Origin: Eledone cirrhosa
Lineage: Eukaryota
Direction: 5' to 3'
Assembly (NCBI GenBank): GCA_964016885.1
Contig: OZ024741.1
Span: 323,888,001-323,952,000 of the forward strand
DNA: 64,000 nt
Numbering within the stretch: the first letter of the stretch is position 1; each line of letters begins with the position of its first letter. Below the pieces are notes generated by a model. The model ran no database searches, was not told the DNA's origin, and saw only the letters and a program-made list of their open reading frames with translations. A program made the translations under genes and the position numbers. Shown piece by piece: positions 22,376 through 62,450 of the stretch.

Positions 22376-22574
22376 ATTGTCAATTTACTTTTCAATTTAC
22401 ATATAACTATATGCATAAATGGAAAAAATGAAATTTCATTTCTCACACTTAGTACGGCTGATACCTAAATATAAGTAACTCACTCACTCGATATGCAAAT
22501 TAGGCTACTCAGCCGTTAATATGCATAATGAAAGTATATACTTTCAAAAGTTCAATCAACTGACAGGAAGGTAT

Positions 22575-22617
22575 ACGGTGCTGATAACAGCTAATATGCT
22601 AGAAACTAGTTCATCGT
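22575..22617 (+). ncRNA. Minimal type-I hammerhead, core variant CTGATAA
   Basis: ACGGTG-CTGATAA-C-AGC(taatat)GCT-A-GAAA-CTAG-TT-CATCGT. Confidence 0.6.
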
Positions 22618-23012
22618 TCCTTTGTCAGTGTTGAACAAAATGGCAACGATGGTTGCCGAACACTGTACGGCTAATAATTCGGGCTGTTTGTTTACAAACA
22701 AACTGAGCATTATAATAAATGTTCGGTAAACCCATACGTACATATATATATATATATATATATATATGAGTGCATGTATGTATATACATACTACTGTACG
22801 TCTGCACACATATATGTATGTATGTATACATACTTATATGTAGGTATCAGCCGTACTAAAAGTGAGAAATGAAATTTCATTTTTTCCATTTATCTTTTTT
22901 CGGTACGCCCGGCCGACTAACTTACTCGATATGCAAATTAGGCTACTCAGCCGTTAATATGCATAAGGAAAGAATATACTTTCAAACGTTCAATCAACTG
23001 ACACGAAGGTAT

Positions 23013-23055
23013 ACGGTGCTGGTGGCAGCTAATAAGCTAGAAACTAGTTCATCGT
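23013..23055 (+). ncRNA. Minimal type-I hammerhead, mutated core CTGGTGG
   Basis: Same as 22575-22617 with different core substitutions; the two copies together are consistent with an ancestral CTGATGA. Confidence 0.5.
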
Positions 23056-23498
23056 TCCTTTGTCAGTGTTGAACAAAATGGCAACGATCGTTGCCGAACA
23101 CTATACGGTTAATAATTCTGGCTGTTTGTTTACAAACAAACCGAGCATTATAATATATGTTTACACATATATATATGAGTGCATGTATGTATGTATATAC
23201 ATACTACTGTACGTGTGTATACATACTTATATATATACGTATGCATACTTATATATACGTATACATACTTATATGTATACATATATATTTGCATATAATA
23301 TCAATATGCACACCACATATGCTAGCAGAAAACCGCACGAGGGCGGTTTTTCTGGTAGTATTTCATAATATATGTATAAATATATATATATATATATATA
23401 TATGTATATATATATATATATATGTATGTATGTGCATATATATATATATATATATATATATATATATATATATATATATATATATATATATATATATA

Positions 23499-24176
23499 GT
23501 TATACTTTGGGAGGGTCATGTTGCCAATAAGAAACACACGCGCCAGTTATTTCATTCCAATTTATTATAAATTAAATTTATAAATTTAAGAATTTATAAA
23601 TTTCTGGTTGGTTGGTTGGTACACCACCAACATGCTAAAATAGAACATAAGGGTAAATTAGAGAACATAGAAATAAAAATAAAATCTACACACAGAAAAG
23701 ACGCAATGTTTAGACAAATCACAGAGACAATAAACATAAATGAACTCCAACCAAAATTAAATAGAAAACATGAATGGAATAGCAACATCACAACTTACAA
23801 TTAAGGATAAAATGAAAACACACACACATAGAACAAACAACCAACTAGTAACATGTAAATAAACAAATAAACAAACAAATAAAAACACACACAGACACCC
23901 GGATGTAACACATGCGCAAACTAAGCACACAACACATACAAAAACAAGATGACGTAGAAGAGAACAAAGGAGAGGCAAAAAACAAAGAGAAGAATCCCCG
24001 GTCACTGAAGAGGTCACAGAATGTGTGACGAAAGAACTTTGACAATATGGACAACCGTCCGGTTGTGGAACCAACCAACCAACCGGAAATTTATAAATTT
24101 AATTTATAATAAGTTGGAGTGAAAGCAACTGGTGCGTGTGTTTCTTATTGGCAACATGACCCTGCCAAAGTATAAC
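23499..24176 (+). mobile_element. Penelope-like element 3' remnant with inverted terminal repeat
   Basis: Inverted arms ~23499-23620 and ~24069-24176; internal ORF ending RQITETININELQPKLNRKHEW resembles the C-terminus of a PLE GIY-YIG endonuclease; hammerhead at 24001. Confidence 0.7.
24001..24043 (+). ncRNA. Minimal type-I hammerhead ribozyme
   Basis: GTCA-CTGAAGA-G-GTCACA(gaatg)TGTGAC-GAAA-GAAC-TT-TGAC; stems I and II pair perfectly. Confidence 0.7.
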
Positions 24177-24332
24177 AATATCGGTTTCAACACACGTTTT
24201 CAGATAAGGAATCTTGCTAAACAAATTCAGAAACGATATATATATATATATATATATATATATATATATATTAGAAAGTGAGGTTTTTTTTACAAAATGA
24301 AAAATAACCGAGGTGTCATACACGAGTGAAAG

Positions 24333-59769: not shown

Positions 59770-60050
59770 AGGTCACCAGTTGGTGCTACTGGTAACATGT
59801 ATCCCAGTACAACCTGTCCCATGGTCGGGTCGTTGGCGACTAAACTGGCAACCCCACCAAGGTTTCTTGGTGAGGAGGGTGACTTTGGACATCCTGCAGG
59901 ACTAAAAACAAAACCTGTCAAAGGGCAAAGGAGCTCTTAAGAGTCAATGGCCATCCAAAATCACCGGGAGAGATGACCCCTTAGCCTTTGTCAAGGCAGA
60001 ATTCTAGGAGAAGGAAAACTCTGATATAACACCTGCAACCCTGATGGTAT
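59770..60050 (+). mobile_element. Probable RTE-type 5'UTR or SINE fragment inside (TATG)n
   Basis: CTAGGAGAAGGAAAACTCTGA and GGCAACCCCACC motifs resemble RTE 5' regions, from recall only. Confidence 0.35.
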
Positions 60051-60374
60051 CCAATGATGTTGACTTGTTCTTCTTTTTGGTAAATATCATCTTGGTTAAG
60101 AGAGTGGGACTGGCTTTGTGCAGTGCCTTTGCTCACTATAAAAGCTTCACGGCACAGGCATTGCTTTATATCTGGAGATCTCTCTGCACTTGTCGTCACA
60201 TGGTACCATGGGCCCAGCACTATGTGTCAGTAATTGTCACAAGTGTAGTGTTTGTACCAGAGTTTTCAAGTCGCTGGCTGGACTAAAAAGTCACACTCGT
60301 TCAGCGCATCGGTAGGGGTTCTCCTACATGGATATAAAGTAGTGGCCGTACTCGAAAACGAGTTGGCAGCCACC

Positions 60375-60975
60375 ATGTATGTATGTATGTATGTATGTAT
60401 GTATGTCTCTTTCTCTCTCTCTCTCTCTCTCTCTCTATATATATATATATATATGCATATATATATATATACATATATATATATATATATATATATATAT
60501 ATATATATATATATATATATATATATATATATATATATGCATATATATATATATACGTATATATATATATACGTATATATATATATGCATATATACATAT
60601 ATATACGTATATATATATACGTATATATATATGTATATATATATATAATATATATATATGCATATATATATATATATACGTATATATATATATATATATA
60701 TATATATATATATATATATATATATATATATATATATATATATATACACGTATATATACACGTATATATATACGTATATATATATATATATATGTATATA
60801 TATATATAACATATATATAATATATATATGAATATATATATAATATAATAATATATATATAAATATAATATATATATACGTATATATAAATATACATATA
60901 TGTATACGTACTTATATATATATATATATATATATATATATATATATATATATATATATATATATATATATATAC
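60375..60975. repeat. Long (TA)n-rich microsatellite
   Basis: Direct reading. Confidence 0.95.
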
Positions 60976-61940
60976 TTACATATGATTAGGGAAGATGGAC
61001 TGAGCACATCAGCTAATAGTATCACGTGCTCTCCAACAGCAATAACTGACAAAATATATTTTCGTTTGTGATTGCCTCAAACAGCAGGCCTTTCGGAAAT
61101 TTCTAGAAACTCTATAATATAATATTAGATATATTACAGTATGGCTGTCCATACTAAATAGATGGATACTTTCGATTATAATATAGATGTTTCTAAAAGA
61201 TTCTTTTTTTGGAAACGATCATTCTGGAAACCTTCGTAACCAAACATAATTCATAATACTAAACACAGATACAGAAAAGATCAATATACGCCTCTTCATA
61301 TAATTTATATTAGTCTGTAATTTTCTGTCGAATCGGCAGAATATATATATATATATATATATATATATATATATATATATAAACGTTTGGAGTTGTAAGG
61401 CCAAGACAATGAAGGTATGGATATAGAATATAAATGCAAATGCAAAATATATTGTTGACAATTAGTCTTTTACCTTAAATTTATTTAAATATCCTTAATT
61501 TTCGAGATAATATCTCTTCTTCGGAGGGAAGTAAAGGGGTTAATCCAGTGTTCTAATTAGCTTGCCAAGTCATGCTGACAGGAAATGGTATAGATATTCC
61601 ATTCTATCTCTAATGTCAGAGAGTGAAGGTTAGGTGGATAAAGAGTAGTTTCCCTTTAAAAGGGGTTTTGTACATGCCTGTTTAAGTGTGTGGGAAAATA
61701 CGTGAAGGCGTAAGTATGCGTGTGTGTGTATGTGTGCGTGTGTGTGTGAGAAGATATGGCTATATGTAAATGTGGTGGCCAGATGCTCTATCATGTTAAA
61801 ACTGGTCTTTGTGTATGTATGTGTGTGTGTGAGAGATAATAAGTGGAGGTGTAAGCGTGTGTGTGTATGTGTGTATGTGTGCGTGTGCGTGTATATATAT
61901 ATATATATATATATATATATATATATATATATATATATAT

Positions 61941-62093
61941 ATTTATTAAAATAACAGATTAAAGTTTAAGCAAAGAATCGCTGCTTTCACACTTAACCGG
62001 ATCTTCTAAAAAATTTTTTAGTTTCAGAAGATCCCGTTAAGGGTGAAAGCAGCGATTCTTTGCTTAAACTTTAATCTGTTATTTTAATAAATA
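61941..62093. repeat. Hairpin with ~66-bp arms abutting (TA)n
   Basis: ATTTATTAAAATAACAG...GGATCTTCT and AGAAGATCC...CTGTTATTTTAATAAAT. Confidence 0.9.
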
Positions 62094-62187
62094 TTTACTC
62101 TACGGTTTTATATATTTGATATATATTTATCGTTATCGAGTCCTCTTTGGATTTTAGTCTTCAAATGTATTATTATTACTATATATA

Positions 62188-62450
62188 TGAAATAGGATTT
62201 CGCTTCAAGCATAGCTTTATACAATATGTATAAATATTTCGAATCTCCAAAGAAATACGGTTCTAGGAATCCGTAGCTATGCAAACACCAAGGGGCTAGC
62301 GCCCTCTGGTGATGTCCAGCAGAAGCAAGGGGGACAACCGTCTATGGAATGTCCCTCCCACCGCTTGCGACTGCTGGACTAGAAGACAGGCGAGAATATA
62401 TACTTTTCTCGTCTGTGTAAATGAGGGGATTAATCTCATTTGCATATGAA
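62188..62450 (-). mobile_element. Diverged member of the octamer-hairpin family, hammerhead absent from the tip
   Basis: Minus strand: ATGCAAAT (62445-62438), GAAAAGTATATATTCTC, stem GTCCAGCAG/CTGCTGGAC; homologous to 38610-38880. Confidence 0.65.

What the first reader, a model, noticed from the sequence alone, without database searches (positions are those of the whole stretch)
22415..62450. Candidate cephalopod retrozyme family: octamer, TATA-like box and hairpin-mounted hammerhead in ~450-bp non-coding units
Seen in sequence: five units share an ordered layout despite low primary identity. They are 22415-23165 (two units), 26698-27192, 38610-38880 and 62188-62450 (minus). ATGCAAAT lies at 22493, 22931, 26763 and 62445(-); it is not visible in the 38610 copy. 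A GAAA(A)GYATATA box follows 34-37 nt after the octamer start. A long hairpin follows, whose arms differ in sequence between subfamilies yet still pair; in four units its tip is a type-I hammerhead. The 22 kb and 26 kb subfamilies also share GAAACTAGTTCA, a small downstream hairpin (GGCAAC..GTTGCC versus GGAAA..TTTCC), GTTTACA.AC, and AAAAGTGAG followed by a terminal palindrome. There is no ORF. Established: metazoan non-LTR retrozymes are short hammerhead-bearing repeats that produce circular RNAs, and newt satellite 2 pairs a hammerhead with an snRNA-type octamer/PSE promoter. Inference: this is a self-promoting, self-cleaving non-autonomous retroelement family, possibly mobilised by Penelope-like RT. 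I cannot confirm it is undescribed.
Basis: partly seen in the sequence, partly recalled or inferred. Interest (0 to 1): 0.92.

Follow-up and report, generated by a model that had tools for sequence, protein, structure and literature searches.

The report
Self-cutting repeats carrying a host promoter
These are short non-coding repeats of a known kind (retrozymes), built around a self-cutting ribozyme and showing the insertion marks of Penelope-type mobile elements, but each unit also carries a copy of a promoter signal of the host's own U6 and MRP small-RNA genes, which suggests that they drive their own transcription.

Summary
The five units are real. They belong to three diverged lineages (A 438 bp, B 467 bp, C about 323 bp) of one non-LTR retrozyme group, with roughly 60,000 loci by extrapolation. 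Only the 26 kb copy has an intact hammerhead core, but intact cores are the norm in genomic A and B copies and recur in C, and hammerhead stems covary (10 of 13 pairs).

Dispersed copies end at two fixed 3' sites 44-69 nt apart, mostly before (TA)n, with 5' truncation and inversion. This is the 'tail' signature of Penelope-like reverse transcription. Family B is very young.

In the repeats it lies 42-44 nt before a TATA box (host Pol III: 47-49), with C|A 30-31 nt further on.

No RNA run was available, so transcription, cleavage, circles and the polymerase are inferred. No partner element was identified and no call established the host as a cephalopod. Newt satellite 2 is a precedent. Verdict: new variant of a known kind.

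The parts
22415..22477 (-). Inverted 5' fragment of family A (monomer positions 340-402), as in Penelope-type insertions
22492..22929 (+). Family A monomer 1 (438 bp, counted from the 12-mer); about 14 further bases of the previous unit precede it
22492..22503 (+). U6/MRP-type 12-mer containing the octamer (second copy 22930-22941)
22535..22541 (+). TATA-like box, 43 nt after the 12-mer start; predicted start 22565 (C|A)
   Evidence: start inferred
22575..22617 (+). Type I hammerhead with mutated core (CTGATAA); predicted cut after 22611
   Evidence: intact CTGATGA in 20 of 23 family cores
22930..23262 (+). Family A partial monomer 2; mutated core at 23019; ends near the first fixed 3' site
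26698..27196 (+). Family B insertion: one 467-469 bp monomer plus about 30 bp terminal repeat, between (TA)n tracts
26762..26773 (+). U6/MRP-type 12-mer, 5' arm of a predicted hairpin
26804..26810 (+). TATA-like box (CATATAA); predicted start 26835 (C|A)
   Evidence: start inferred
26856..26900 (+). Intact type I hammerhead; palindromic stem III (ACTAGT); predicted cut 26893|26894, at the tip of a long hairpin
27127..27196 (+). 'Tail' between the two fixed 3' ends (about 27127 and 27196); contains AAAAGTGAG and the GAAAT-NNN-ATTTC hairpin (27164-27176) seen in all three lineages
38608..38880 (+). Diverged family C relative, truncated inside the promoter (box at 38618, no 12-mer); core at 38680 lacks the G of GAAA
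62181..62488 (-). Family C copy: 12-mer 62446-62435, TATA at 62402, hammerhead core deleted (about 27 nt), ends at the second fixed site

Best explanation
A group of non-LTR retrozymes that carry their own snRNA-type promoter and are copied in trans by a Penelope-like RT/GIY-YIG protein. (1, inferred) In a tandem copy, the 12-mer and TATA box start transcription about 74 nt downstream of the 12-mer, just before the hammerhead. The spacing and the need to read through T5-T6 runs slightly favour Pol II (about 55:35 against Pol III, remainder undecided). (2, inferred from covariation) The hammerhead, probably acting as a dimer through its palindromic stem III, cuts the multimer into unit RNAs that may circularise. 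(3, shown at DNA level) Copying starts at one of two internal sites and is joined mostly to (TA)n. It runs back through hammerhead and promoter, often more than one unit, and stops or inverts at variable points. (4, consequence) Because the template spans more than one unit, a promoter lying upstream of the start is inherited by new copies. Copies of about two units or more can be new sources, and arrays then grow by DNA-level duplication.
For: Copy number and youth: all 40 scored family B hits (997 candidates) are 100% identical over 301 bp, 20 in one array and 20 dispersed, the window copy included. A and C gave 2759 and 1948 candidates. Hammerhead: 91.6% of cells paired, 10 of 13 pairs with double changes, slid controls at most 36.7%; stem III is a different palindrome in A/B, C and D; 73 of 73 array units examined have an intact core. 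Ends: 15 of 16 (B), 28 of 33 (A) and 37 of 41 (C) 3' ends fall in two zones, of which 15, 25 and 27 are followed by TA repeats; both orientations occur in 6 of 10, 7 of 25 and 18 of 25 loci. This matches the tail and inverted-copy hallmarks. An uninterrupted 712-aa PLE-like frame with a hammerhead-like motif and a TTATACAT|(TA)n end exists in the genome. Promoter: the 12-mer is at -77 to -79 in 4 of 4 Pol III promoter types and 0 of 16 Pol II upstreams; in 7 of 7 subfamily representatives it lies 42-44 nt before a TATA box with C|A 30-31 nt later. Its strand is 93% conserved across 10 rows against 65% for its hairpin partner. None of 55 PLE-type hammerheads has it upstream.
Against: No transcript, start site, cleavage product or circle has been observed. 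The 12-mer-to-TATA distance (42-44) matches no host gene examined (47-49 in U6 and MRP). The Pol II core match is weak: scores -4.8 to +5.1, only 1 of 7 above 3, against -6 to -12 for Pol III genes. Both promoter elements lie in predicted hairpins, so RNA structure could contribute. The conservation figure is partly circular, because rows were picked by the 12-mer, and the start was chosen as the C|AG at TATA+30/31. Only 3 of 18 U6 loci printed carry the element; most others look like retrocopies. No partner PLE with clear homology was found (best non-microsatellite matches E 0.05 or weaker). 5' ends show no clear pile-up at the predicted start (1 exact and 2 within 5 nt among 98 ends) and only 4 lie within 3 nt of the cut site, about 1 expected (post hoc).
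Confidence: 0.62

Rival explanations
1. Ordinary promoterless retrozymes transcribed by read-through; the 12-mer and AT box are a relic of a captured Pol III upstream region, or are kept for RNA folding or protein binding.
For: Both elements lie in predicted hairpins; their spacing is 3-7 nt shorter than in host Pol III genes; a review holds that retrozymes lack promoters (PMC7761336).
Against: The octamer strand is conserved far better than its partner strand (0.93 against 0.65). Its main variable position (G/T) is also variable among the host genes. 12-mer, TATA and pyrimidine-purine start stay in register in lineages with no BLAST alignment over 150 nt between B and the others.
Confidence: 0.18
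2. A Pol III type-3 unit: short linear RNAs from the start to the T5-T6 run, trimmed by the hammerhead, with rare read-through RNAs as templates and no need for circles.
For: The 12-mer is Pol III-specific in this host (4 of 4 against 0 of 16). The printed A, A2 and B monomers have no T4 run between the predicted start and a T4-T7 run near the copying sites; family C copies commonly have T6 at the second end.
Against: Both copying sites of B lie downstream of its T5 run, and most sampled copies include the promoter, so terminators were crossed routinely (loci were selected by promoter-containing queries). Spacing and the A start resemble U1/U2. The absence of T4 was not tested against shuffles.
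Confidence: 0.13
3. The units are solo pseudo-LTRs of an autonomous Penelope-like element not yet found.
For: Same ends, targets and inversions as PLEs; vertebrate retrozymes are related to pLTRs (bioRxiv 10.64898/2026.07.22.740005).
Against: Copies join head to tail with no intervening frame, including 73 array units. In 61 loci scanned for frames of at least 110 aa, the PLE fragments seen either face away or end in their own tail before the unit.
Confidence: 0.05
4. A DNA-level satellite or Helentron-type non-autonomous element in which the hammerhead and promoter are incidental.
For: The C5 array shows higher-order repetition of variants, so it grew by DNA duplication; units have internal microsatellite hairpins.
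Against: Hammerhead covariation, one-sided fixed ends with variable 5' truncation and inversion, and identical dispersed copies on five large contigs.
Confidence: 0.02

Closest known systems
Metazoan non-LTR retrozymes (Cervera and de la Pena 2020, PMC7229834, passages read; review PMC7761336, passages read)
   Same: Type I hammerhead with weak stem III in short, low-GC, tandem, non-coding, highly self-paired units.
   Different: The review says retrozymes seem to lack promoters; these carry a host-matched 12-mer, TATA box and start register. 'Cephalopod' and 'octamer' occur 0 times in PMC7229834. Circular RNA is shown there, not here.
Vertebrate retrozymes as non-autonomous PLE derivatives (bioRxiv 10.64898/2026.07.22.740005; parts 1-3 of 5 read, supplements closed)
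   Same: Monomers, dimers and arrays; proposed mobilisation by PLEs.
   Different: That work covers 31 vertebrates, 3 insects and 1 coral, and argues from co-occurrence and pLTR homology. Here no pLTR homology was found, but the insertion ends carry the two-site signature. No promoter is discussed in the parts read.
Newt satellite 2 (Coats et al. 1994; not readable, seen only as cited in PMC2220036)
   Same: Tandem repeat with an internal snRNA-type promoter reported to drive Pol II; that it carries a hammerhead and an octamer is recalled.
   Different: Here the octamer sits at about -73, directly before the core, and is the variant specific to the host's Pol III genes. Sequence homology was not tested.
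Schistosome hammerhead satellite (Ferbeyre et al. 1998; as cited)
   Same: Hammerhead repeat with its own promoter.
   Different: Its Pol III promoter is internal (tRNA-derived, recalled); the signal here is of the upstream snRNA type.
EN+ Penelope-like elements (PMC11167929, parts 1-2 of 4 read; Craig et al. bioRxiv 10.1101/2021.04.23.441226, passages read)
   Same: Two internal copying starts ('tail'), partial tandems, inverted truncated copies, AT-rich or (TA)n targets, hammerhead.
   Different: No coding frame; the tail is 44-69 nt rather than 30-40; PLE-type hammerheads here lack the 12-mer (0 of 55).

Membership tests
Non-LTR retrozyme | Type I hammerhead in each unit | tested here: met
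   73 of 73 B array units; 20 of 23 A cores; intact cores in several C copies, deletions in others; covariation
Non-LTR retrozyme | Short tandem units, GC below 45%, no protein coding | tested here: met
   323-493 bp, GC 35-43%; longest ATG frame 22-68 aa
Non-LTR retrozyme | Stable, highly self-paired monomer | tested here: met
   Circular fold z -10.1, -9.0, -11.3 and -4.2 against 25 shuffles each; microsatellite hairpins inflate A, A2 and B
Non-LTR retrozyme | Self-cleavage of the transcript | not testable with these tools
   Structure only; 4 of 98 insertion 5' ends lie within 3 nt of the cut site, a weak hint
Non-LTR retrozyme | Accumulation of circular monomer RNA | not testable with these tools
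   No run on record as RNA was listed
PLE-mobilised element | Two fixed internal copying starts ('tail'), 5' truncation, inversion, AT-rich target | tested here: met
PLE pLTR derivative | Sequence homology to the pLTR of an autonomous PLE | tested here: inconclusive
   Only 7 PLE-type stretches compared; nothing significant outside microsatellites; one 18/22 match (E 0.94) coincides with a fixed end of another hammerhead repeat
Autonomous PLE | RT plus GIY-YIG frame contiguous with the repeat | tested here: not met
   0 of 61 loci; head-to-tail junctions
Host Pol III type-3 promoter (U6, MRP) | TATGCWAATKAG 12-mer upstream of a TATA box | tested here: met
Host Pol III type-3 promoter (U6, MRP) | 12-mer-to-TATA spacing of 47-49 nt and G start | tested here: not met
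   42-44 nt and a predicted A start in 7 of 7 representatives
Host Pol II snRNA promoter (U1, U2, U3, U5) | TCAGT-like core at -55 to -58, about 26 nt before an AT box | tested here: inconclusive
   TCAG in A, A2, C3 and D, TCAC in C and C2, CCAC in B at -56 to -58; matrix scores -4.8 to +5.1
Host Pol II snRNA promoter (U1, U2, U3, U5) | AATTA(A/G) near -89 | tested here: not met
   Absent at that position in 7 of 7 representatives; present at -88 to -99 in 15 of 16 host upstreams
tRNA-derived SINE | tRNA-related head | tested here: inconclusive
   Rfam scans of an A and a C head list no tRNA match up to E 10; Repbase, Dfam and SINEBase could not be searched

The most novel reading that the evidence does not exclude
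A SINE-equivalent that escapes the rule that short retroelements need a promoter inside the transcript. It keeps an upstream-type snRNA promoter by being copied from more-than-unit templates through Penelope's internal initiation. The promoter is a functional hybrid, the host's U6/MRP octamer module set at U1/U2 spacing, which switches it to Pol II so that T-runs are read through. Family B would be a currently mobile example with an intact source array.
Probability: 0.3. Interest if true: 0.78.

Novelty: new variant of a known kind. Interest (0 to 1): 0.56.

Why it matters
How animal retrozymes are transcribed and moved is open: a 2020 review assumes read-through without promoters, and a 2026 preprint infers the Penelope link from co-occurrence and pLTR similarity. 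This group offers both answers in testable form. It has a promoter signal traceable to the host's own U6 and MRP genes and kept across lineages that barely align, and it has two mapped copying starts that fit the in vitro behaviour of a PLE protein. A near-identical young family with an intact array gives ready substrates. The 3-7 nt spacing shift is also a natural test of what sets polymerase choice at snRNA promoters in this animal group. As a by-product, the host's U6/MRP and U1/U2/U3/U5 upstream motifs are defined.

Tried and rejected
RNA evidence: no RNA holder was listed, which is no evidence either way. Contigs of four runs of unrecorded kind were laid: they cover the unit, and one 496-nt contig of another organism label goes back 467 nt. 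That could be tandem DNA or a circle and cannot be told apart, so it was not used; the low-depth holders under two other organism labels were not taken as evidence of range.

Rfam: only the 26 kb copy hits a hammerhead model among the 150 of 232 rows listed; intact A and C heads hit none, so Rfam misses these variants.

Partner PLE: BLAST of three monomers against 7 PLE-type stretches gave microsatellite noise only. Pfam in this library gave no family for the 712-aa frame and only a sub-threshold GIY-YIG match for a second PLE-like fragment; PDB gave nothing. Its PLE identity rests on Atlas and homologue rows carrying PF26215/PF28514/GIY-YIG and on recalled motifs.

Octamer as a distal enhancer of Pol II snRNA genes: rejected, none within 260-320 nt of 12 U1, 7 U2, 7 U5 or 4 U3 upstreams.

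5' ends at the predicted start or cut site: not significant for the start, weak for the cut. One search used a mis-set stem I and is superseded.

Literature: searches listed no description of this group or of a U6-type promoter in a retrozyme. The library lacks most subscription journals, Repbase and Dfam; Coats 1994 was not held; preprint supplements are closed. Earlier scan findings: none in three look-ups. No covariance model was built; a profile HMM was used instead.
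Full report
OBSERVATION. The motifs are at the stated places, and a profile from 11 family members finds exactly the five units. Corrections: only the 26 kb hammerhead is intact (Rfam HH9 38.6 bits, below the cut-off of 52); the two 22 kb cores and the 38 kb core are mutated and the 62 kb core is deleted; 22415-22477 is an inverted piece; family C is about 323 bp.

FAMILIES. The 26 kb unit (B, 467 bp) gave 997 candidates. All 40 scored were 100% identical over 301 bp, 20 in one array on C5 and 20 dispersed on C1-C5. The 22 kb unit (A, 438 bp) gave 2759 candidates, the best at 94-95%; the 62 kb unit (C) gave 1948. In 40 stretches of 10 kb taken at round coordinates, the profile hit 9 times in 5 stretches and BLAST added tail fragments in 2 more, about 8 insertion loci in 400 kb. 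That extrapolates to about 60,000 loci (Poisson range about 26,000-120,000; my arithmetic). Further subfamilies (A2, D, C2, C3) turned up; B gave no BLAST alignment over 150 nt to the others in the head region.

RIBOZYME. Intact cores are the rule in A (20 of 23; two of the three exceptions are the window copies) and in the B array (73 of 73). C copies show intact cores and various deletions. Across 11 representatives the three stems pair in 91.6% of cells, with double changes in 10 of 13 pairs and slid controls at 23-37% (the structure was derived from these sequences, which favours it). Stem III is a different self-complementary hexamer in A/B, C and D, as expected for hammerheads that cleave as dimers (PMC7761336). 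The wider hairpins covary too: 13 of 40 and 9 of 44 predicted pairs. Monomers fold far below shuffles (z -4 to -11) and code for nothing longer than 68 aa.

MOBILISATION. Dispersed copies share two fixed 3' ends per family, 51 (A), 69 (B) and 44-47 (C) nt apart: 28 of 33, 15 of 16 and 37 of 41 ends, of which 25, 15 and 27 run into TA repeats. Inverted segments occur in 7 of 25, 6 of 10 and 18 of 25 loci (the C set holds two duplicate pairs). 5' ends are scattered and many copies exceed one unit. Frangieh et al. showed that a PLE protein nicks AT-rich DNA and starts copying at two internal RNA sites, producing a 'tail' unique to PLEs (PMC11167929). Craig et al. list the tail, inverted truncated copies and (TA)n targets as PLE traits. 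PLE-like elements are abundant here (49,423 candidates, 150 scored, for one C-terminal fragment). One locus has an uninterrupted 712-aa frame, a hammerhead-like motif and a (TA)n end, whose look-alikes carry PF26215 and GIY-YIG. No PLE frame is contiguous with a unit in 61 loci, and no partner was identified. All three lineages have a GAAAT-NNN-ATTTC hairpin just before the second end, a candidate protein-binding signal (inference). The C5 array has higher-order repeats, so it grew further by DNA duplication.

PROMOTER. Host U6 genes of three types and the single RNase MRP hit carry TATGCWAATKAG at -77 to -79 and a TATA box at -30. Fifteen other U6 loci printed lack it at that place: most look like retrocopies, and some array copies have it displaced by an insertion. 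None of 16 distinct U1, U2, U3 and U5 upstreams has it; they have a TCAGT-like core at -55 to -58, AATTA(A/G) near -89 in most, and an AT box near -30. Seven of 7 subfamily representatives have the 12-mer (one with a mismatch), a TATA-like box 42-44 nt later, and C|A 30-31 nt after that, shortly before the hammerhead. In the unbiased sample 7 of 8 exact 12-mers lie in these elements, with 0.57 expected by chance, and 0 of 55 PLE-type hammerheads have it upstream. The 12-mer is one arm of a hairpin, yet it is 93% conserved against 65% for the partner arm (partly circular by selection). Against a simple reading: the spacing fits no host Pol III gene, and the Pol II core match is weak. In insects, polymerase choice is set by the 3' half of the proximal element (PMC1761439, abstract and introduction), which makes a Pol II-directed hybrid plausible but unproven. 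T5-T6 runs near the copying sites could be Pol III terminators, but they were evidently crossed.

MODEL. Transcription from the unit's own promoter in a dimer or array (inferred); hammerhead processing, perhaps to circles (inferred); PLE-primed copying from two internal sites into (TA)n (shown at DNA level, enzyme inferred); inheritance of the upstream promoter because templates exceed one unit (shown by copy structure). One A copy begins exactly at the predicted start and four copies begin within 3 nt of the cut site, among 98 ends; this is weak and post hoc. My estimates: retrozyme 0.9, PLE-mobilised 0.9, working promoter 0.7; jointly about 0.6. No RNA data could be used.

COMPARISON AND NOVELTY. 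It works like, and meets the testable criteria of, the non-LTR retrozymes (PMC7229834; bioRxiv 10.64898/2026.07.22.740005); cleavage and circles are untested. It differs from the stated view that retrozymes lack promoters, but newt satellite 2 with an snRNA promoter and a schistosome satellite with a Pol III promoter are precedents (as cited in PMC2220036; originals not read). Nine paper searches listed no account of this group; a coleoid repeat survey has 0 occurrences of 'ribozyme' and discards unknown repeats (PMC8967140, passages). Repbase, Dfam, subscription journals and preprint supplements were out of reach and may list these as unnamed repeats. Verdict: new variant of a known kind, interest 0.56.

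Noticed in passing
window 23499-24240: Penelope-like fragment: C-terminal coding remnant, minimal hammerhead-like motif at 24005, an inverted end piece and (TA)n flanks; no octamer.
   Followed up: partly
window 40318-40720: Second PLE-type end with a T-rich leader and a hammerhead core at 40618; this TATTTTATCTGA family gave about 20 of 34 hammerhead-like hits in 400 kb and lies 1.6-2 kb downstream of GIY-YIG-like remnants in L179 and L181.
   Followed up: partly
window 24333-24633 / 26339-26639 and 24716-24886 / 26094-26264: Long inverted repeats (97-99% complementary) around about 1.2-1.7 kb, MITE-like.
   Followed up: no
window 12986-16494: Broken frames resembling a Helitron Rep/helicase (label recalled from motifs).
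   Followed up: no
window 5103-8524 and 41664-42570: Broken LINE-type RT frames, and a transposase-like remnant (labels recalled).
   Followed up: no
L092:2600-3200: Another hammerhead repeat without the 12-mer whose first fixed end resembles the first end of family B (18 of 22 bases); possible relative of the partner.
   Followed up: partly
G000:C19:31.78-31.84 Mb (L058-L068): Tandem U6 array; in some copies an insertion separates the 12-mer and TATA box from the gene.
   Followed up: partly
L096-L115, L205-L235: Host Pol II snRNA and U3 genes have a TATA-like box near -30 besides a TCAGT-like core, a bipartite layout as in insects rather than vertebrates.
   Followed up: partly
G000:C5:87.617-87.654 Mb (L001-L020): Family B array of at least 73 units, 40 variants, with a higher-order repeat of about 19 units.
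   Followed up: partly
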